From: Rickettsiales bacterium
GTDB lineage: Bacteria; Pseudomonadota; Alphaproteobacteria; Rickettsiales; JABCZZ01
DNA length: 64,000 bases
Assembly: GCA_035765535.1 (NCBI GenBank)
Contig: DASTXE010000003.1
Span: 388,516 to 452,515, forward strand
Direction of reading: 5' to 3'
In this document: positions 15,954 through 58,604 of the stretch, piece after piece
How positions within the stretch are numbered: position 1 is the first letter of the stretch
How the letters are laid out: each line of letters begins with the position of its first letter
Program-made: the position numbers and the translations under genes
Notes under the pieces: model-generated
Told to the model about the DNA's origin: nothing
The model's input: the letters and a program-made list of their open reading frames with translations, nothing else
Databases searched by the model: none

Positions 15954-18089
15954 CTATTTCACATGAAATGACACTGTATCGACCGGTTGCATCTGGCCGC
16001 CGCCGCTCTCTGCCACCTCCAGCACCAGCTGATAATCACCGCGTTGCAGCGGCCAGAGATAATGTCCGTTGTCAGTCACGGCCACCGTTTTGCCATTGAG
16101 CTTCCAGCCTGCCTGTTGTCCGGGCGAAATGCCTTGGGCGACAAATTCAAATGCCTGCTTGTTGGCAGGTACGCGCGGATCATATGCAAGGTAAAGCCCA
16201 TCGACGGGACGCACCAGCGCAGGGTGGGGCGCGGTGGAGACGATTGGCGCAGCAGCGGTAGGCTCCGTGCCAGCAATAAAATATTCCGAGTGCATGAAAC
16301 ACCCGCGGCTGCCGTCATGCGCTTGTGTGCAAATATCATGCTTCACGAGGCGAGGGCTTAAGTAAAGCGGCGCGGTGGGAATGCGTTCTGTTAACGCGGC
16401 GAATATGCTGCGAAGCGCAATCGCAGGGCCGGAAGAGCCGGTGACGCCGTCCATCGGTTTGCCGTCGAGATTGCCCATCCAAATACCCACCACATAATGC
16501 GAATTATACCCCATTGCCCAGGCATCGTGATAATCCGTAGAGGTGCCTGTTTTCGCAGCGGTCTGTACCGGCAGGTTCAGCATGCTGCCCGTGCCGAATT
16601 CCAAGCGCTTTGCCCACGGGTCGGAAAGAATATTACCAATCAGCGATGCTGCTTCCTCTGAATAAATACGTTCATTGGGCCGTGCATAAGGAGAATCGAG
16701 CAGTGCGGTTAGTGGACGGAATACGCCGCGATGTGCAAGCGCCGCATAGGCCTGCATCATCTCGAAAAGTGTAACTTCGCCGTCACCGAGCGCGAGGCCT
16801 TCATCGTAAAAATCAGCAGGCTGCGTAAGGCTTTCCATGCCGAGCCTGTGCAGGGTAGCAAGATAACGGGCAACGCCCACATGGTCTATCGTATGAATGG
16901 CGGGAATATTGAGCGAATTGCCGAGCGCCTCGCGCAGCGTCACCTTACCGTAATAAGTATGGCTGTAATTGCGGAAGCGATGCATTCCGTCATTGATTTC
17001 CTGCGTGATCGGTTCATCCGGAATAATGGTGGCAGCGGTCCAGCCGGAATCAAGCGCCAGCGCATAAAGCAGCGGCTTCATGGAGGAACCCGGTTGGCGC
17101 GGTGTAAGCACGGCGTCAATTGCCTGCTGACTGTCGCCCGCCGTTACCCAGGCAAGGATTTCCCCTGTTTCATGGTCCACGATCATAGCCGCTGCATTAT
17201 GCGCCTGCTTGCGCTTCATACCGCGCAAGAGTGCATCCAGCGTCTGCTGTGCCTGCTGCTGAATATGCGCATCGAGCGTGGTAGTAAGTTTGCCGGGAGA
17301 GGCTGCTACATTCTGCCGTATGTAAGAGACAAAGTGATCTGCGCTGACCGGCAGTGCAGGTTTGCCGAGGGCGAATGCACCGGAAGCTGTTTCCTCCTCC
17401 GGCAGATGCATCGCTGTGGCCAGCCGCAGGAGAGCGGGTGTAATCTTACCCGGATGCGCATAAAGATCATAAGCCGAGGGTGCGCGCGGCAGCACAGCAA
17501 GTGCCAGCATTTCTTTCGGCGTGAGTGTTGCCACTTCGCGGTTGAAATAATAACGCGCTGCCTGCACGATGCCACGGCGATTGGCGGCGTAAGGTACCTG
17601 ATTCAGGTAGAATTCCAGTATCTGCGCTTTTGCCGCATGGCGTTCCAGAGACATCGCCTCGAATCCTTCCACCCAGCGCGACCATAACGTCCGTGGGCGT
17701 GGATGCAGGATGCGCACCACCTGTTCGGTGATTGTGCTGGCGCCGCGTACGCCGTGCAGCGCCTTGATGTCCTGCCGGACGGCGGCAAGCCGTGCGAGCC
17801 AGTCCACGCCATGATGCGAGAAGAAGCGTTTGTCTTCTGCGGCAATGAAAGCCTGCTGCAGCAAGGAAGGCACGGAATAAAGCGGCAGGATAGAAGAATC
17901 ATTCAGCGCATTGCGGTAAGATACGGCTAGTGGCGCGCCGCTGCGATCTACGACATCGAAATGTGTCTGTGCGGAAAAGTCATTAAGCGCTCCGGCATCA
18001 AGAGGCTTCACAGCCATCCATGTGGCCACTGCCAGCATTACTGCCGGAACCAGCAGGCAGACGCTCGCTATCGCAAATGCGCGGCGCAT
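15954..18089 (-). CDS. pbpC: Penicillin-binding protein 1C (bifunctional transglycosylase/transpeptidase)
   Basis: Contains AAEDKRFFSHHGVD (GT51), GSSMKP (SxxK), GNSLN (SxN) and KTGT. The ATG at 18089 follows the A2M stop as TAAtATG. The track start at 18140 would overlap by 50 nt. Confidence 0.92.
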   Translation of the reverse strand: MRRAFAIASVCLLVPAVMLAVATWMAVKPLDAGALNDFSAQTHFDVVDRSGAPLAVSYRNALNDSSILPLYSVPSLLQQAFIAAEDKRFFSHHGVDWLARLAAVRQDIKALHGVRGASTITEQVVRILHPRPRTLWSRWVEGFEAMSLERHAAKAQILEFYLNQVPYAANRRGIVQAARYYFNREVATLTPKEMLALAVLPRAPSAYDLYAHPGKITPALLRLATAMHLPEEETASGAFALGKPALPVSADHFVSYIRQNVAASPGKLTTTLDAHIQQQAQQTLDALLRGMKRKQAHNAAAMIVDHETGEILAWVTAGDSQQAIDAVLTPRQPGSSMKPLLYALALDSGWTAATIIPDEPITQEINDGMHRFRNYSHTYYGKVTLREALGNSLNIPAIHTIDHVGVARYLATLHRLGMESLTQPADFYDEGLALGDGEVTLFEMMQAYAALAHRGVFRPLTALLDSPYARPNERIYSEEAASLIGNILSDPWAKRLEFGTGSMLNLPVQTAAKTGTSTDYHDAWAMGYNSHYVVGIWMGNLDGKPMDGVTGSSGPAIALRSIFAALTERIPTAPLYLSPRLVKHDICTQAHDGSRGCFMHSEYFIAGTEPTAAAPIVSTAPHPALVRPVDGLYLAYDPRVPANKQAFEFVAQGISPGQQAGWKLNGKTVAVTDNGHYLWPLQRGDYQLVLEVAESGGGQMQPVDTVSFHVK

Positions 18090-18090
18090 A

Positions 18091-37810: not shown

Positions 37811-39127
37811 ATGCTCTATAATCTGTATGGCCATGATTATCCGGTCGCTATTCCGGATGATCCACTGCTGAAAGCCGCCCTCACGGTAGCAGAACGCGCA
37901 CATGAAGGGCAGGAACGCCGCAATAGCCAGAGGCCGTATCTGGATCATGTGCTGCTTATATATGATATTCTGGATAAGTTTGGTTGCAGTAGCGAACAGA
38001 AAGCCATTGCCCTGCTGCATGATACGGTAGAGGATAAGCTGGAATCCGTGAAAGAACTCCATCGGCAGCTGTGCGAAGAACTTGAGGTCCCGTGCACGAT
38101 CCGGGACGATGCGGTGATTACGAGTCTTGGCGAGCGCAAAAACGGCGGCAGACCATTGCAGGATAGCGATATAGATGCGGATATAGCCGAACTTGGCGTA
38201 GATAAGGCGGAGGCGTTGTCCCTTAAAATATGCCAGGGCGTATATCAAATGAGCCTTGGTGCAATTCGCTTTGAAGGCAAACGGAGTTATCAGGTCGATC
38301 AGGCCTCTCGCATGAGCCCGCTCGTCAAACCTATAAAAATAGTGGATCAGGCGGCCAGCGTCCTGGATGACATCATGCATCTTCCAATGCCCGGCAGCGG
38401 CACGGCGGCGGATATCTCGCACGAAGCTGCGTGGAGGGAGACCAGAAAGGCAATTCGGCTTGCGCTGAAAGGGTATGACGTCGCCACCTCGGCTGCGGAC
38501 AGAATGCATCGCAAGGCACCTTTATATCTCTTTCAGGATTTATATGGAAAACTCCAGGAGCTAAAGGAACTTCAGAAAAAAGAGAATTATGACGGTATAG
38601 CGGCTCTCCGTGAGAATATGGCGAATGACGGAATCGAGCCTATGATAAAGCGAGCAACTTCATATACGAGACGTTTTCGCAACTCCGCTGATAAAAAACT
38701 GCCATTACCTGATATCGTAAAGCATTTCTATGCTCCGGACAGTGAAACCGGGATACAGAGAGTGACCATATCACGCACAACAGGGAAAATTGTCAGTATA
38801 GGCGTTGTGGTGTCACCGGATGGGGATGACAAAGCGCCTGCCAATCGTATTGCTCATATTATACGTGACGAGCTGGAGTCGCTGAGGGATGTGAAAATCG
38901 ATACCGGGAATAAATCTGTTCAGAGAATACGTGTTCGGGAAGAAGGTGTCGAAATGCATAGCGAAGTGCTTCATGTCCGTGATTTCAGGATAAAGCCGCC
39001 TATGAGCCCCAGAACATTCCTCGAGAGAATGCGCACACTTGAGCTGCGGCAGGATCTCAATGTCATAGACAGAGAACTGGAATTAGCCGTTATGTCTACC
39101 CAGCCTGGTGTTCACCGATATCGGTAA
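37811..39127 (+). CDS. HD-domain protein: RelA/SpoT-type (p)ppGpp-hydrolase-like N-terminus plus ~240-aa uncharacterised C-terminal region
   Basis: AERAHEGQERRNSQRPYLDHVLLIYDIL...AIALLHDTVEDK matches the SpoT/Mesh1 HD signature (H..Q.R..g.PY..H...V / LLHD.vED). I recognise no synthetase domain and no match for residues ~200-438. Confidence 0.75.
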   Translation: MLYNLYGHDYPVAIPDDPLLKAALTVAERAHEGQERRNSQRPYLDHVLLIYDILDKFGCSSEQKAIALLHDTVEDKLESVKELHRQLCEELEVPCTIRDDAVITSLGERKNGGRPLQDSDIDADIAELGVDKAEALSLKICQGVYQMSLGAIRFEGKRSYQVDQASRMSPLVKPIKIVDQAASVLDDIMHLPMPGSGTAADISHEAAWRETRKAIRLALKGYDVATSAADRMHRKAPLYLFQDLYGKLQELKELQKKENYDGIAALRENMANDGIEPMIKRATSYTRRFRNSADKKLPLPDIVKHFYAPDSETGIQRVTISRTTGKIVSIGVVVSPDGDDKAPANRIAHIIRDELESLRDVKIDTGNKSVQRIRVREEGVEMHSEVLHVRDFRIKPPMSPRTFLERMRTLELRQDLNVIDRELELAVMSTQPGVHRYR

Positions 39128-39133
39128 TCGCTA

Positions 39134-39877
39134 TTATAAGGCCGTCAACAATGTGCGTGGCAGCGGCAGGCGGCCCATAACCTGTTGGTAACCGTCATTG
39201 CCTGTCCAGCAATTGGCATTTCTGACATACATCTGACAGGAACCGAAGCGTGCGTTATGGGTGCCGTCATAACAGCCCACCTTGAAGTAATTACCGCCAT
39301 TGCCGAGATCGTTATAAGTGGTGGCGACATTATATTGGCGAAACAAAGGCTGACCGTCGATAAAGAATTCGCGAAAACCATTGCTGTTGGGCTGCCAGTT
39401 GACATGGAAGCAGGCCTGGTACCAGTGGTTATATTGCGGATTGATGCTCCCTACGATCGTAGTGCTTGAACCGCTTGCGGGTAACGTCTGGGAAGGAACA
39501 GAAATGGCCAGGTATCCGGGCTGCTGATACTGAAAGGCAAACGGGATCGGATTGACCGGATCGGCATCCGGAGTATGGATCTGCATTAGAATAATAGGGT
39601 CGAGCAGAGGCGCAAACCCTGTAGGCAGCATGAACTCCCAATAGAACCAGTATTCTCCGGTTGGTGTACAGGCAGGCATTGTAATTTCCGACCGGATACC
39701 GGTAGCCGTCGGTGTCATGCTCTGGTTGATGGTAGCCAGCATGGCGCTGTTGGATATCACCAGCGCTCCCGGGATGCCGTTAGGAAGATTATTGCCTGTG
39801 TCAATAATACCGTTAGCCTGCAGTTTATTCACGCCTGCAAAGGTCGAGGATAGCGGATAATTAATAATCTGTGTCAT
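39134..39877 (-). CDS. Concanavalin-A-fold polysaccharide-lyase-like protein (PF14099-like pattern)
   Basis: Shows the pattern GIRSEITMP...YWFYWEFMLP...ILMQIHT...WYQACFHVNW.PNSNGF.EFFIDGQP...GNYFKVGCYDG. I see no signal peptide. It is coupled to the upstream gene as TAAtATG. Confidence 0.6.
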   Translation of the reverse strand: MTQIINYPLSSTFAGVNKLQANGIIDTGNNLPNGIPGALVISNSAMLATINQSMTPTATGIRSEITMPACTPTGEYWFYWEFMLPTGFAPLLDPIILMQIHTPDADPVNPIPFAFQYQQPGYLAISVPSQTLPASGSSTTIVGSINPQYNHWYQACFHVNWQPNSNGFREFFIDGQPLFRQYNVATTYNDLGNGGNYFKVGCYDGTHNARFGSCQMYVRNANCWTGNDGYQQVMGRLPLPRTLLTAL

Positions 39878-39878
39878 A

Positions 39879-40901
39879 TTAAAAAGCCGAGTTGGTTACA
39901 AGTTGGCCGGGATTGGCGCGTAGCTGCTGGAATAATGCCGTGACTGTGGCGATAGACGGTGTCGCAGTCGCAGAAGGGAGCCTCAGAATGGCCAGGGCTC
40001 TTGTCTGCACGATCGTGCCGCTTGTGCTATTGGCTACCGCCGGAAATGCCGTGCCTATGTTAAAAGTATTAGTCGTACGCGTATCCACTGCTGTGCCGCC
40101 TCCTAATGCTGCATAGTTTCCGCCCAGGTTGGTATCGTATAGCTCATCGGTCCATGCGCCGTATTGTTTTGCCGTACCGTCGATTACAAAACCGAAACTA
40201 TGCAGTCCGCCGTCAAAAGGAACGCCGACAGAGGTGCCGCTGAAAATACTGTTGGTGCCATCAACCAGATTGAGCTGCCACTTGCCGGCAGTGGTGGCCC
40301 TGACATTGAGGCCGTGATAGGTTGCACTGGCACCGTCTCCCATAATCTGGAGCGTTGCAGCCGGTGTCGCGATTCTGCCGAGCCACCAGAGAATAAGTTT
40401 TTCACCTCCCAGATAATCCAGATTAAGCGCCGGCATACGCAGCGATGCGTTGGTGCCGCTGGTGCTGATGGTAGTGGAGGCAACCGTCTGGCTCAGATTG
40501 ACCGTCCATGTGGAACCGCTGCCGGATACGATATAGGTTCCCGCGGTGACGCCTGTGCCGGTGACAGTCTGTCCGATGGTAATAGTGCCGGTCAATCCGG
40601 AAACGACCGTGAGCGTTGTGCCGGAGATCGTTCCTGTGAAAGAAGCCGATGCAGGCTGCTGCGTCGAAATATACCCGTTGTTTCCCCACGCCACGCTGGA
40701 AATAAGCTGGGTGCCAAATACGGCATTATCCATGGCGCCGGACATATCGTAAAAAACCGGATCTCCCGCAATCTGGTTCCCGGCGAAACCATGAAAGAAA
40801 TAATAAGGGCTTTGCGTAGGCCCCAGATCCGAACTGTTGGTGATCGATAATGTTCCACCGCTGATATTGAGGGCGACAGAACCGGTAAAGGATGAGGACA
40901 T
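39879..40901 (-). CDS. Phage tail-fibre-like protein with LamG/ConA-like C-terminal jelly roll
   Basis: Contains the G/T/S-rich module FTGTISGTTLTVVSGLTGTITIGQTVTGTGVTAGTYIVSGSGSTWTVNLSQTV, a motif class seen in phage/GTA fibre proteins. A LamG-like block follows (LILWWLGRI...LNVRATTAGKWQLNLVDG...HSFGFVIDG). I see no signal peptide. Confidence 0.55.
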   Translation of the reverse strand: MSSSFTGSVALNISGGTLSITNSSDLGPTQSPYYFFHGFAGNQIAGDPVFYDMSGAMDNAVFGTQLISSVAWGNNGYISTQQPASASFTGTISGTTLTVVSGLTGTITIGQTVTGTGVTAGTYIVSGSGSTWTVNLSQTVASTTISTSGTNASLRMPALNLDYLGGEKLILWWLGRIATPAATLQIMGDGASATYHGLNVRATTAGKWQLNLVDGTNSIFSGTSVGVPFDGGLHSFGFVIDGTAKQYGAWTDELYDTNLGGNYAALGGGTAVDTRTTNTFNIGTAFPAVANSTSGTIVQTRALAILRLPSATATPSIATVTALFQQLRANPGQLVTNSAF

Positions 40902-41049
40902 ATCAATATTCCATGAATGGGATGATAGTGCATGTATAAAGCGTAAGAAGTACTAATATACTCCAATGCACTAACGCGAGAAAGTGAATTAATATCACAT
41001 AGAAATTTTAGATGAATAATGACAGCCTTCTTTCTTTTGAGGAGGATAT

Positions 41050-41211
41050 ATGACTGACACAATCGAAACGAATAAGGATATTAAGAACAGCGAAACGAAT
41101 ACGAAGACAAAGAAGCCTGTCGATGTGGCAACCCTTGAGAAGTCCAGAGCGACCAGCGAAATGGATACGGAAAGCTCTGATCCTGTTGCTGTAGGCGAAG
41201 CATCCGGTTGA
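41050..41211 (+). CDS. Possible 53-aa acidic, hydrophilic small protein
   Basis: GAGGAGGA lies just upstream, with about 4 nt between it and the ATG at 41050. My translation is MTDTIETNKDIKNSETNTKTKKPVDVATLEKSRATSEMDTESSDPVAVGEASG. It is below the ORF-track cutoff. Confidence 0.35.
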   Translation: MTDTIETNKDIKNSETNTKTKKPVDVATLEKSRATSEMDTESSDPVAVGEASG

Positions 41212-41268: not shown

Positions 41269-41287
41269 TTGACTGATCGGTCAAATC
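41269..41287. promoter_or_regulatory. Candidate TetR operator 1 (autoregulatory)
   Basis: TTGACTGATCGGTCAAATC contains the dyad TTGAC-N6-GTCAA and lies 32 nt upstream of the tetR ATG. In my alignment 13 of 15 positions match the site at 42025-42042. Confidence 0.5.
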
Positions 41288-42024: not shown

Positions 42025-42042
42025 AAACCGACCGGTCAAATC
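42025..42042. promoter_or_regulatory. Candidate TetR operator 2 (efflux operon)
   Basis: AAACCGACCGGTCAAATC contains the 8-bp palindrome GACCGGTC and lies about 25 nt upstream of the adaptor gene ATG. It shares CGGTCAAATC with operator 1. Confidence 0.5.
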
Positions 42043-57448: not shown

Positions 57449-57530
57449 CCTTAATCTGCTAGTTCGCTTTTGTTGAATATCAATTTTGTTCCGTATATTA
57501 TGGAGAATATATGGCTCAGCAGGCGGCAAT

Positions 57531-58604
57531 ATGCGTTTTTTGTATTTCTTGATAGCGTTACCTTTCTTCTCCGTACAAGCTTACGCAGATTCCTTGCATC
57601 CCCCTCCAGGCTACTACCAACCGGTTATCGAGAAAAAAAGAGAATCCTTTACTTGTGAAACACCGCCCCCTCCTTTTACTGGCACTTTGGCTTTTACAAG
57701 TAAGTATCAAGGTTCCGGCCCTTCCCAGGATCAACTGAACCCTCAAGCCTTTGCTGAATATCAAGAGTCAACCAAAGCCGTTGATGATCTTGAAAAAGGG
57801 ATTGTGGTGATGACGAATAAATATATGAAGCAGGGCGACCCACAAAGATTAGAATGTATACTTTCCTGGATGGCAGCATGGAGCGATGCGCATGCTCTGG
57901 AGCAACCTACGAATGATTACATGGGAAAAGCGGTAAGGAAATGGGCACTGGGAAGCCTAAGCGGTGCCTATCTTCGCCTGGAATTTTCACGTTCTGAGCC
58001 ATTACAGGCCTACCCTGAGCAGAATAAAAAGATAGAAGCATGGTTAGGACGATTAGGTGAACAGGTGATGTCCGACTGGAACATAGATTCATCTTCCTCG
58101 CACAAGATCAATAACCATTATTACTGGGCTGCATGGGCGGTAATGGCCACTTCGGTCGTGCTCAACAGGCAGGACATGTTCGATTGGTCGCTTAAAACAT
58201 ATGATTACTTTACTACTCAGGTAGATAAAGACGGATATCTACCCAATGAGTTAGCACGCAAGACCAGAGCATTTAGTTATCACCAGTATGCTCTGTTACC
58301 GCTTTCAATGATAGCGGCTTTTGCTAGAGCAAATAATATCAATGAAGCAAGCAGAGGAAATAATGCGATTGGTCGCGTGGCAAAAGTAGTACTGAAGGGA
58401 ATGGATGATAAAAGCGATTTTGAGGCCAAAACCGGAATAAAGCAGCAGACTGATGAGATTACACATAATTCAAGGCAGGCATGGATACCGCCATTTTGTT
58501 ATGCAGAACCCTGTTTTGACGCTGTAGAGCAACGATTAAATACCTACGGTGTGATCAGCAACACTAATCTTGGCGGAGAGGTTACAACTATATTCCAGCA
58601 GTAA
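57531..58604 (+). CDS. Alginate-lyase-family protein (PL5 / AlgL-like alpha/alpha barrel)
   Basis: The signal peptide is MRFLYFLIALPFFSVQAYA/DS. NNHYYWAAW matches the AlgL NNHSYW catalytic motif. The track ORF is extended upstream to 57486. Confidence 0.8.
   Translation: MRFLYFLIALPFFSVQAYADSLHPPPGYYQPVIEKKRESFTCETPPPPFTGTLAFTSKYQGSGPSQDQLNPQAFAEYQESTKAVDDLEKGIVVMTNKYMKQGDPQRLECILSWMAAWSDAHALEQPTNDYMGKAVRKWALGSLSGAYLRLEFSRSEPLQAYPEQNKKIEAWLGRLGEQVMSDWNIDSSSSHKINNHYYWAAWAVMATSVVLNRQDMFDWSLKTYDYFTTQVDKDGYLPNELARKTRAFSYHQYALLPLSMIAAFARANNINEASRGNNAIGRVAKVVLKGMDDKSDFEAKTGIKQQTDEITHNSRQAWIPPFCYAEPCFDAVEQRLNTYGVISNTNLGGEVTTIFQQ

What the first reader, a model, noticed from the sequence alone, without database searches (positions are those of the whole stretch)
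39134..40901. Isolated phage-tail-fibre-like protein plus ConA-fold lyase-like protein, with no other phage genes
Two translationally coupled genes (TAAtATG), both leaderless. The first, of 340 aa, has a G/T/S-rich beta module of the kind seen in phage and gene-transfer-agent fibre proteins, then a LamG-like jelly roll. The second, of 247 aa, follows the polysaccharide-lyase ConA-fold pattern (RSE..., ..QIH.., ..W..dG.., YFK.G.Y). This is the architecture of a receptor-binding protein plus depolymerase. I see no capsid, tail, integrase or lysis gene within 20 kb. In Rhodobacter capsulatus the GTA tail-fibre and head-spike genes lie outside the main GTA cluster, so an analogous accessory locus is one hypothesis. 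A domesticated glycan-binding and degrading pair is another. The upstream ~150 nt are markedly AT-rich.
Basis: inference. Interest (0 to 1): 0.6.

Follow-up and report, generated by a model that had tools for sequence, protein, structure and literature searches.

The report
Orphan phage-type polysaccharide lyase gene pair
Two tightly linked genes encode a sugar-binding-type adaptor and a sugar-chain-cutting lyase; the same cassette sits in the particle-building regions of many phages, but here it survives alone and well preserved in a genome that shows no sign of any phage particle genes, so the cell has most likely kept it for its own use.

Summary
Two minus-strand genes are joined by TAAtATG: A (39879-40901, 340 aa) and B (39134-39877, 247 aa).

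- **B:** a PF14099 jelly-roll polysaccharide lyase. Its closest folds are PL20 glucuronan lyase and PL7 alginate lyases. The PL7-type RSE / QIH / YFKxGxY residues are invariant across its family.
- **A:** belongs to a small uncurated LamG/ConA-like family. It carries a rare ~65-aa G/T/S-rich insert whose sequence recurs in phage structural proteins.
- **A then B is a fixed, translationally coupled module.** It appears in 43 of 47 A genes across 44 fetched loci; the four without B lie at or near a contig or locus end.
- **Contexts elsewhere:** many copies lie in phage structural regions (after the portal in P22-like prophages, or among tail genes). Others are chromosomal in uncultured Alphaproteobacteria, and two independent ones abut a wecB/wecG exopolysaccharide locus.
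- **This genome:** seven phage structural hallmark families gave no hit in a genome rated 100% complete, which argues strongly against the GTA or tailocin reading. The same EPS locus, including wecC, lies on another contig.
- **Preservation:** A shows dN/dS of about 0.10 against a related species, where the pair sits at a different chromosomal site.

Best reading: a phage-derived, domesticated two-part uronate-polysaccharide depolymerase. This scan had already noted PF14099-like lyase domains in EPS loci and phages in other genomes. Substrate and export route remain unknown.

The parts
39879..40901 (-). Gene A, 340 aa: LamG/ConA-like jelly-roll protein of an uncurated family, putative carbohydrate-binding or adaptor subunit
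   Evidence: ORF. No Pfam or NCBIfam hit. AlphaFold pLDDT 93.7, pTM 0.87. Foldseek finds only lectin-type ConA/LamG domains, TM 0.42 or less normalised to the query, and many phage ConA-like proteins. Family size is 288 cluster representatives out of 1.84 billion. Distant members give sub-threshold Laminin_G_3 matches.
40452..40652 (-). Residues ~84-150 of A: G/T/S-rich beta-hairpin module inserted inside the jelly roll
   Evidence: Among the 47 locus copies checked, the spacing between two flanking motifs could be measured in 32. It is 125 residues here and 131 in phage contig L001, against 61-65 in the other 31. The alignments also show the insert in P0002 and in P0004, which is the L001 copy. 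It matches PHROG 21413 at E 2e-9. It is 60-80% identical to ~60-aa segments of proteins that carry Baseplate_J, DUF3383, Phage_stabilise, Laminin_G_3 or GH26 domains.
39875..39881 (-). TAA-t-ATG junction: stop codon of A, one spacer base, start codon of B (translational coupling)
   Evidence: Across 47 A genes the A stop and B start overlap by 1 nt in 34 and by 4 nt in 8. A 1-nt spacer occurs only here and in phage contig L001.
39134..39877 (-). Gene B, 247 aa: PF14099 beta-jelly-roll polysaccharide lyase (PL20/PL7-like)
   Evidence: Pfam PF14099 at E 6.9e-20. AlphaFold pLDDT 92. Foldseek: 2zzj, a PL20 glucuronan lyase, at E 1.6e-11 with TM 0.67/0.69; PL7 alginate lyases A1-II' and PA1167 at TM 0.62-0.71. 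A profile search hits 2zzj at E 2.9e-14.
39269..39694 (-). Span holding B's putative catalytic residues: R62/E64 (39686-39694), Q99/H101 (39575-39583), Y197/K199/Y203 (39269-39289)
   Evidence: R62, E64, Q99, H101, Y188, Y197 and K199 are invariant in 21 family members that include phage copies. QIH and YFKxGxY align with the QIH and YFKAGNY of PL7 A1-II'.
40902..41051 (.). AT-rich region (32% GC) upstream of A, part of the 417-nt gap up to the divergent tetR
   Evidence: The simple scan found no sigma-70-like promoter on the minus strand here.

Best explanation
The two genes form a phage-derived, two-part polysaccharide depolymerase cassette that the bacterium has kept as a stand-alone chromosomal operon.

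- **B (catalytic subunit):** a beta-jelly-roll lyase that would cleave a uronic-acid-containing polysaccharide by beta-elimination. By analogy with PL7, Arg62 and Gln99 would neutralise and position the carboxylate, and His101 and Tyr197 would act as base and acid.
- **A (non-catalytic partner):** a LamG/ConA-like protein made in fixed ratio with B through translational coupling. It most likely binds the glycan, holds B, or both.
- **In phages:** the same A-B module is encoded in head or tail morphogenesis regions, and presumably lets the virion or lysate strip the host's capsule or EPS.
- **In this genome:** no particle genes were detected, so the pair most likely trims, turns over or releases a cell-surface polysaccharide. 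The best candidate substrate is the ManNAcA-type exopolysaccharide specified by the wecB/wecC/wecG locus on contig C6.

Shown here: gene structure, fold, catalytic motifs, module conservation, phage and EPS contexts, no detectable particle genes, and purifying selection. Inferred: the A-B complex, the substrate, and the extracellular site of action.
For: - **Enzyme identity of B:** PF14099 above the cut-off. The fold is closest to PL20 and PL7 lyases. The PL7-type R/Q/H/Y motifs are invariant.
- **A is LamG-like:**
- **Fixed module:** B immediately follows 43 of 47 A genes in 44 fetched loci, and the stop and start codons overlap or abut.
- **Phage contexts:**
  - L001 and Nitrosospira or Gemmatimonadales prophages run terminase, portal, A-B, scaffold/coat.
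  - L006 places the pair between the tape-measure gene and a J-like central tail fibre gene.
  - L068-L072 place it among virion proteins, next to holin, endolysin and integrase genes.
  - 25 IMG/VR contigs carry it.
- **Chromosomal copies nest within viral diversity.** There are at least three separate lineages. Two of them, in different subclades, sit on opposite sides of an orthologous wecG-wecB / PCP-kinase / BBP2_2 locus.
- **The host has that locus:** WecG is 72-80% identical. WecC scores 480 bits against a cut-off of 459. An export apparatus is also present.
- **No particle genes found in a genome rated 100% complete**.
- **The pair is maintained:** both ORFs are intact. dN/dS is 0.10 against the 75%-identical copy of a related species. 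GC and GC3 match the host genes.
Against: - Neither protein has a recognisable Sec or Tat signal peptide, judged from the N-terminal sequences. It is therefore unclear how they would reach an extracellular polymer.
- In this genome the pair is not linked to the EPS locus, which lies on a different contig.
- No activity, expression or A-B interaction data exist.
- Substrate specificity cannot be read from 15-20% identity to characterised lyases.
- dS is saturated at about 1.5, so the dN/dS value is approximate. It also does not by itself show that the constraint acted in a cellular rather than a phage setting.
Confidence: 0.6

Rival explanations
1. The pair is a domesticated depolymerase aimed at other organisms' polysaccharides. 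It would break down foreign capsule, biofilm matrix or environmental polyuronates, for competition, attachment or nutrition, rather than process the cell's own EPS.
For: Here the pair is detached from the EPS locus and sits among uptake and efflux genes (TonB receptors, RND pump). A second, unrelated PL5 alginate-lyase-like gene lies 17 kb away. Other orphan copies sit between housekeeping genes with no EPS genes nearby. Phage depolymerases act on cells from the outside.
Against: Two independent lineages place the pair directly beside the wecB/wecG EPS locus. There is no signal peptide. No sugar-uptake or uronate-catabolism genes flank the pair.
Confidence: 0.2
2. The pair is an inert prophage remnant: the last surviving fragment of a decayed phage, with no present function.
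For: The nearest relative of A that shares its insert and has a known context is phage-borne, on L001. The same rare TAAtATG junction occurs in L001. The pair was not found in 6 genomes of the same family, nor in 397 of 400 other genomes sampled from the order.
Against: Both ORFs are full length and keep all family-invariant residues. dN/dS is 0.10 over a divergence with dS of about 1.5. Base composition is fully ameliorated. A related species keeps an intact pair at another chromosomal site. No other phage debris and no flanking repeats were found.
Confidence: 0.1
3. The pair is an accessory receptor-binding and depolymerase locus for a particle encoded elsewhere in the genome (a GTA, tailocin or prophage lacking its own fibre genes).
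For: The module is encoded in particle-building regions of phages, and A family members carry variable N-terminal leaders like those of exchangeable fibre proteins. In Rhodobacter capsulatus the GTA fibre and head-spike genes are unlinked from the main cluster; this is established knowledge and was not tested here.
Against: PF05065 capsid, PF04860 portal, PF03354 and PF03237 terminases, PF04984 sheath and PF10145 tape-measure protein gave no hit in a genome rated 100% complete. Of these six searches, the five other than sheath detected the Caulobacter GTA-bearing control. tblastn with the structural proteins of two pair-bearing phages found only A and B. The N-terminal leader of A is only 33 aa here and is absent in the closest relative.
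Confidence: 0.03
4. The pair is a phage-resistance moron: a receptor-destroying enzyme kept because it removes the capsule or EPS that related phages need for adsorption.
For: The pair has a phage origin. The same enzyme type is used by phages that recognise the polymer.
Against: No PADLOC defence model matches A, B or the neighbouring HD protein. No resident prophage was detected that would benefit. The linkage with EPS biosynthesis genes in relatives fits processing better than destruction.
Confidence: 0.05

Closest known systems
PL20 endo-beta-1,4-glucuronan lyase of Trichoderma reesei (PDB 2ZZJ), within Pfam PF14099
   Same: Best match by sequence profile (E 2.9e-14) and by fold (TM 0.67/0.69). 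Same single-domain beta-jelly roll of about 240 residues.
   Different: Only 15% identity. At the motif positions 2ZZJ reads H-S-E and Q-F-I where B has the PL7-like R-S-E and Q-I-H. 2ZZJ is a fungal secreted enzyme with no partner protein.
PL7 alginate lyases (Sphingomonas A1-II', PDB 2CWS/2ZAA; Pseudomonas PA1167, PDB 1VAV)
   Same: Same fold (TM 0.62-0.71). The signature motifs R(S/T)E, QIH and YFKxGxY are shared, and QIH and YFK align.
   Different: The sequence match is not significant (E 0.13). B has a conserved ~45-residue N-terminal extension outside the Pfam match. It is always encoded after a LamG-like partner. The substrate is unlikely to be alginate, because in relatives the pair sits beside a wecB/wecG-type EPS locus, not an alg locus.
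Two-component phage receptor-binding complexes, in which an anchor or adaptor protein carries a separately encoded depolymerase (for example Klebsiella phage KP32-type and E. coli phage G7C gp63.1/gp66). From general knowledge, not tested here.
   Same: Two adjacent co-expressed genes in phage structural modules. One has a variable N-terminal region and the other is the enzyme. The A and B trees are partly discordant, which suggests module exchange.
   Different: Those depolymerases are trimeric beta-helix tailspikes, whereas here the enzyme is a small jelly-roll lyase and the partner a globular LamG domain. Virion association of A and B has not been shown. In P22-like prophages the pair lies next to the portal gene, not at the tailspike position.
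Lyases or glycanases encoded within exopolysaccharide loci (AlgL in alginate loci; ExoK/ExsH of Sinorhizobium succinoglycan). From general knowledge.
   Same: In two relatives' lineages the pair abuts EPS biosynthesis and export genes, as polymer-trimming enzymes do.
   Different: AlgL is PL5 and has a signal peptide, and ExsH uses a type I secretion signal. A and B have no recognisable export signal. Here the pair is unlinked from the EPS locus, and its ancestry is phage-associated.

Membership tests
Pfam PF14099 Polysacc_lyase (heparinase I / PL20 / PL7-like jelly-roll lyases) | Profile match above the curated gathering score | tested here: met
   72.3 bits against a cut-off of 29.9, E 6.9e-20, residues 49-205. 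It is the only copy in the genome.
Pfam PF14099 Polysacc_lyase (heparinase I / PL20 / PL7-like jelly-roll lyases) | Beta-jelly-roll fold superposable on solved PL20/PL7 lyases | tested here: met
   AlphaFold pLDDT 92. Foldseek gives 2zzj at TM 0.67/0.69, and 2cws, 2zaa and 1vav at TM 0.62-0.71.
PL7-type catalytic machinery | Conserved Arg, Gln, His and Tyr in the R(S/T)E, QIH and YFKxGxY motifs | tested here: met
   R62, E64, Q99, H101, Y197 and K199 are invariant in 21 homologues. QIH and YFK align with PL7 A1-II'.
PL7-type catalytic machinery | Beta-elimination activity on a uronate polysaccharide | not testable with these tools
   Needs an enzyme assay.
CAZy PL7 or PL20 (family assignment) | Significant sequence similarity to a characterised member | tested here: inconclusive
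   PL20 2zzj matches at E 5e-4 with the single sequence and 2.9e-14 with the profile. PL7 matches only at E 0.05-0.4. Identity is 12-20%. B could belong to either family or represent a new PL family.
LamG / ConA-like lectin superfamily (for A) | Jelly-roll fold of LamG/ConA type | tested here: met
   The Foldseek top hits are all lectin-type ConA/LamG domains (laminin G, neurexin LNS, the trans-sialidase lectin domain and the lectin-like subdomain of clostridial binding domains), with prob 0.99-1.00 and 5-15% identity. This is a fold-class resemblance only.
LamG / ConA-like lectin superfamily (for A) | Match to a curated LamG profile (for example PF13385 Laminin_G_3) | tested here: not met
   A has no Pfam hit at E up to 1. 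Only distant family members give sub-threshold PF13385 hits of 17-25 bits against a cut-off of 27.6.
Phage tail fibre / receptor-binding protein | Encoded within a phage or prophage structural module | tested here: not met
   Not met for the window copy: no phage genes were found in the genome. Met for many homologues.
Phage tail fibre / receptor-binding protein | N-terminal particle-anchoring domain and elongated fibre architecture | tested here: not met
   The leader is 33 aa with low confidence, and the rest is one globular domain plus an insert. The closest relative has no leader.
RcGTA-type accessory locus (head spike or tail fibre genes outside the main cluster) | An RcGTA-like head-tail cluster (HK97 capsid, portal, terminase, tape measure) elsewhere in the genome | tested here: not met
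   PF05065, PF04860, PF03354, PF03237 and PF10145 all gave no hit in a genome rated 100% complete, while the Caulobacter control was positive.
RcGTA-type accessory locus (head spike or tail fibre genes outside the main cluster) | Sequence homology to RcGTA GhsA/GhsB or tail fibre proteins; CtrA/GafA-type regulation | not tested
EPS-locus polymer-trimming lyase (AlgL-like role) | Located inside or next to an EPS biosynthesis and export locus | tested here: not met
   In the window the pair is on C3 and the EPS locus is on C6. The feature is met in relatives L002/L023/L024/L025 and L004/L005.
EPS-locus polymer-trimming lyase (AlgL-like role) | Export signal for a periplasmic or extracellular location | tested here: not met
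   Neither N-terminus has a hydrophobic or positively charged signal region (sequences). No dedicated predictor was available.

The most novel reading that the evidence does not exclude
The A-B cassette may be a previously undescribed binary depolymerase: a LamG-like subunit of an uncurated family (288 cluster representatives in 1.84 billion) obligately paired with a small jelly-roll lyase. Small-genome Alphaproteobacteria would have captured it from phages several times and put it to work on their own ManNAcA-containing exopolysaccharide. That would imply a new lyase specificity, possibly a new PL family. It would also imply an export route without classical signal peptides.
Probability: 0.25. 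Interest if true: 0.6.

Novelty: new variant of a known kind. Interest (0 to 1): 0.45.

Why it matters
Phage depolymerases and EPS-locus lyases are both well known. What is new is one fixed two-gene module that links the two worlds.

- The module is a LamG-like partner from an uncurated family plus a PL7/PL20-like lyase.
- It occurs in at least three kinds of phage structural region (P22-like head modules, a siphovirus-type tail tip, and a structural region ending at a lysis cassette), and also as a conserved stand-alone operon in several uncultured alphaproteobacterial lineages.
- It is therefore a clear case for studying how phage receptor-destroying enzymes are domesticated.
- It points to a candidate lyase for N-acetylmannosaminuronic-acid polymers. 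I know of no characterised lyase for these; that rests on my own knowledge, not on a search.
- It raises a concrete open question: how do two proteins with no signal peptide reach their substrate?
- For annotation, it gives the A family (currently 'hypothetical') a context-based role.

Tried and rejected
- **GenBank phages (INPHARED):** tblastn with A and B found no match at E 1e-5.
- **PDB sequence searches:** A, and its insert alone, gave only chance hits at E of about 0.5-6, including a toxin B-chain that I regard as noise.
- **NCBIfam:** nothing for A or B.
- **PADLOC:** nothing for A, B or the neighbouring HD protein.
- **A as a diverged paralogue of B:** hhalign of the two family profiles gave probability 0.1%, so this was rejected.
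- **Mobile-element boundaries:** no flanking direct or inverted repeats were found, and the only tRNA in the window is 26 kb away.
- **Promoter and terminator scan:** nothing above the shuffled expectation.
- **Synteny:** same-genus and same-family genomes conserve only the RND operon, so the insertion boundaries could not be defined.
- **Literature:** searches for PF14099 and for 'glucuronan lyase' with 'phage' gave nothing on this module.
- **Organism name:** the nearest named relatives by RecA are MAGs labelled only 'Rickettsiales' or 'Alphaproteobacteria bacterium'.
Full report
**1. What is in the sequence**

The finding's coordinates hold two minus-strand ORFs.
- A runs 39879-40901 and encodes 340 aa.
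- B runs 39134-39877 and encodes 247 aa.

A's TAA stop, one T and B's ATG form the junction TAAtATG. Neither start codon has a clear Shine-Dalgarno sequence. 'Leaderless' cannot be tested from sequence. The 150 nt upstream of A are 32% GC, against 52% for the window. The genes themselves (54.5% and 50.9% GC; GC3 0.58-0.59) match their neighbours.

**2. Protein B**

- B matches Pfam PF14099 (Polysacc_lyase) at 72.3 bits against a cut-off of 29.9.
- Its AlphaFold model (pLDDT 92) is closest to the PL20 endo-glucuronan lyase 2ZZJ (E 1.6e-11, TM 0.67/0.69). Next come PL7 alginate lyases (A1-II', PA1167) and a PL7 glucuronan lyase.
- A profile of 21 homologues hits 2ZZJ at E 2.9e-14. It aligns B's QIH and YFKxGxY with the QIH and YFKAGNY of PL7 A1-II'.
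- R62, E64, Q99, H101, Y188, Y197 and K199 are invariant across the family, phage copies included.

B therefore has the fold and the full PL7-type catalytic signature of a uronate beta-elimination lyase. With only 12-20% identity to characterised enzymes, its CAZy family and substrate stay open.

**3. Protein A**

- A has no Pfam or NCBIfam match and no PDB match by sequence.
- Its model is confident (pLDDT 93.7, pTM 0.87).
- Foldseek returns only lectin-type ConA/LamG jelly rolls: laminin G, neurexin LNS, the trans-sialidase lectin domain and the lectin-like subdomain of clostridial binding domains. Identities are 5-15% and query-normalised TM is 0.42 or less. This is a fold-class resemblance only. 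It also returns many phage 'ConA-like' proteins.
- Distant family members give sub-threshold Laminin_G_3 hits.
- A is not a diverged copy of B (hhalign probability 0.1%).
- The family is small: 288 cluster representatives at E up to 1e-3 among 1.84 billion, and 93 at E up to 1e-30.
  - Among the locus copies whose flanking motifs could be measured, only this copy and the one on phage contig L001 have it. The alignments also show it in P0002, the closest relative, and in P0004, which is the L001 copy.
  - The same ~60-aa segment recurs at 60-80% identity in proteins with Baseplate_J, DUF3383, Phage_stabilise, Laminin_G_3 or GH26 domains.
  - It matches PHROG 21413.

**4. The pair is a fixed module**

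I fetched related loci from assemblies, GTDB genomes and IMG/VR and scanned 44 of them.
- 43 of the 47 A genes are followed directly by a B gene. The four exceptions lie at or near a contig or locus end.
- The A stop and B start overlap by 1 nt in 34 cases and by 4 nt in 8. The 1-nt spacer occurs only here and in L001.
- Coupling this well conserved points to co-expression in a fixed ratio. I infer, but have not shown, that the two proteins form a complex.

**5. Where the module lives**

*(a) Phages*
- L001, several Nitrosospira prophages, a Gemmatimonadales prophage and many IMG/VR contigs share a Terminase_3 that is 52-55% identical. In L001 the order is terminase, P22-type portal, a 106-aa gene, A-B, then scaffold and P22-type coat. 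In L033 and L038 A follows a weakly matching portal directly.
- L006 has the pair between the tape-measure gene and a lambda-J-like central tail fibre gene.
- L068-L072 have it among large virion proteins, just before a holin or endolysin gene and near integrase, YqaJ and repressor-like genes.
- The B proteins of L068-L072 are 52-55% identical to the window's B. They share a fully supported clade with it.

*(b) Bacterial chromosomes, all uncultured Alphaproteobacteria*
- Three MAGs of one genus in the window's own order carry the pair next to wecG-wecB, with a divergent PCP-tyrosine-kinase gene and a BBP2_2 outer-membrane barrel gene beyond.
- A different A-B lineage (L004/L005) sits on the other side of the orthologous locus, after BBP2_2.
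- L029 has the pair between nnrS and tyrS. L026/L028 have it between a tsaB-like gene and a phosphoglucomutase gene.
- The closest relative (L073, with A 75% identical) follows a PepSY-TM gene. That gene's orthologue in the window's genome (73% aa, 79% nt) lies on C6, where there is no pair.

*Phylogeny.* On the A and B trees the chromosomal copies form at least three separate lineages nested among viral ones. The trees are unrooted quick trees, so the phage-to-chromosome direction is the parsimonious reading, not a proven one.

**6. This genome**

- It is 2.6 Mb in 6 contigs and is rated 100% complete.
- There were no hits for HK97-type capsid, portal, TerL_ATPase, Terminase_6N, sheath or tape measure. 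The Caulobacter control was detected in the five searches other than sheath.
- tblastn with all structural proteins of L001 and L006 finds only A and B.
- Tyrosine recombinase matches exist, but the nearest is more than 100 kb away.
- The neighbours are a PQQ glucose dehydrogenase, SCO1, an HD-domain protein and a TetR-RND efflux operon.
- The pair was not found in 3 same-genus or 3 same-family genomes. In the order it occurs in 4 of 401 genomes and 2 of 190 genera.
- The genome does carry the EPS locus that flanks the pair in relatives, on contig C6 at about 90-107 kb. Its genes are:
  - a BBP2_2 barrel and a Wzz-type tyrosine kinase;
  - WecB and a WecG-family transferase (72-80% identical to the relatives');
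  - a Wza-like exporter, an HfsH-like deacetylase, a GT4 and an acetyltransferase;
  - WecC, the UDP-ManNAc dehydrogenase (480 bits against a cut-off of 459);
  - a WbaP-like initiating transferase.
- WecB, WecC and WecG together imply a polymer containing N-acetylmannosaminuronic acid. Chemically that is a possible lyase substrate. This is inference.

**7. Is the pair maintained?**

- Both ORFs are intact and keep every family-invariant residue.
- Against L073, A shows dN 0.16 and dS about 1.5 (saturated), giving dN/dS of about 0.10. The insert is at least as constrained, at 0.06.
- The L073 copy lacks the 28-residue N-terminal leader altogether. That argues against a particle-anchoring role in this lineage.

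**8. Verdict**

- Its 'binding protein plus depolymerase of phage type' reading is supported by comparative context.
- Its GTA-accessory hypothesis is not supported.
- Its 'domesticated pair' alternative is the best explanation.
- No defence-system model matches.
This agrees with the general picture.
- I rate the finding a new variant of a known kind, of moderate interest.

Noticed in passing
window 57486-58604 (+): A 372-aa protein matches PF05426 Alginate_lyase (PL5, AlgL-like) at E 2e-51. It is a second, unrelated polysaccharide lyase 17 kb from the pair, following a methyltransferase gene.
   Followed up: no
window 41272-41287 and 42027-42042: Two copies of a 16-nt sequence, ACTGATCGGTCAAATC and ACCGACCGGTCAAATC, lie upstream of tetR and upstream of the RND adaptor gene. 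They are likely TetR operators and match an earlier first-reader note.
   Followed up: partly
window 15954-24264 (-): A 2057-aa bacterial alpha-2-macroglobulin is followed by a PBP1C-type penicillin-binding protein. This is the classic A2M-PbpC pair.
   Followed up: no
G000 contig C6, about 90,059-107,001 (L022 and beyond): A complete Wzx/Wzy- or PEP-CTERM-like EPS locus with WecB, WecC, a WecG-family transferase, a BBP2_2 barrel, a PCP tyrosine kinase, a Wza-like exporter, an HfsH-like deacetylase and a WbaP-like transferase. It probably specifies a ManNAcA-containing EPS.
   Followed up: partly
L036, L055, L058 (Nitrosospira multiformis Nl7 prophage and IMG/VR relatives): These prophages carry two tandem A-B pairs in a row. 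L037 and L057 carry a second, very divergent pair upstream of the first.
   Followed up: no
L046 10744-12810 and L047 10780-13068 (IMG/VR): Here the B lyase domain is the N-terminal part of a 688- to 762-aa ORF. The enzyme is fused to a long C-terminal extension instead of being a free 245-aa protein.
   Followed up: no
L001, L033, L038 (P22-like prophages): The pair sits in the head module: between the portal and the scaffold/coat genes in L001, and directly after a weakly matching portal in L033 and L038. This is not the usual tailspike position, so a head- or portal-proximal location of a depolymerase would be unusual.
   Followed up: partly
L002/L024 A proteins, N-terminal ~40 residues: The EPS-linked chromosomal A copies keep an N-terminal 'KISQLTA...SLTGAELIPVVQSGTTK' leader. 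From memory, it resembles the N-terminal motifs of phage tail-fibre proteins. This would hint that these copies are recent captures.
   Followed up: no
window 37811-39127 (+): The convergent neighbour is a 438-aa protein with an HD_4 (SpoT-like hydrolase) N-terminal domain and an unassigned C-terminal half. It is poorly conserved in same-genus genomes, so it may be accessory too.
   Followed up: partly
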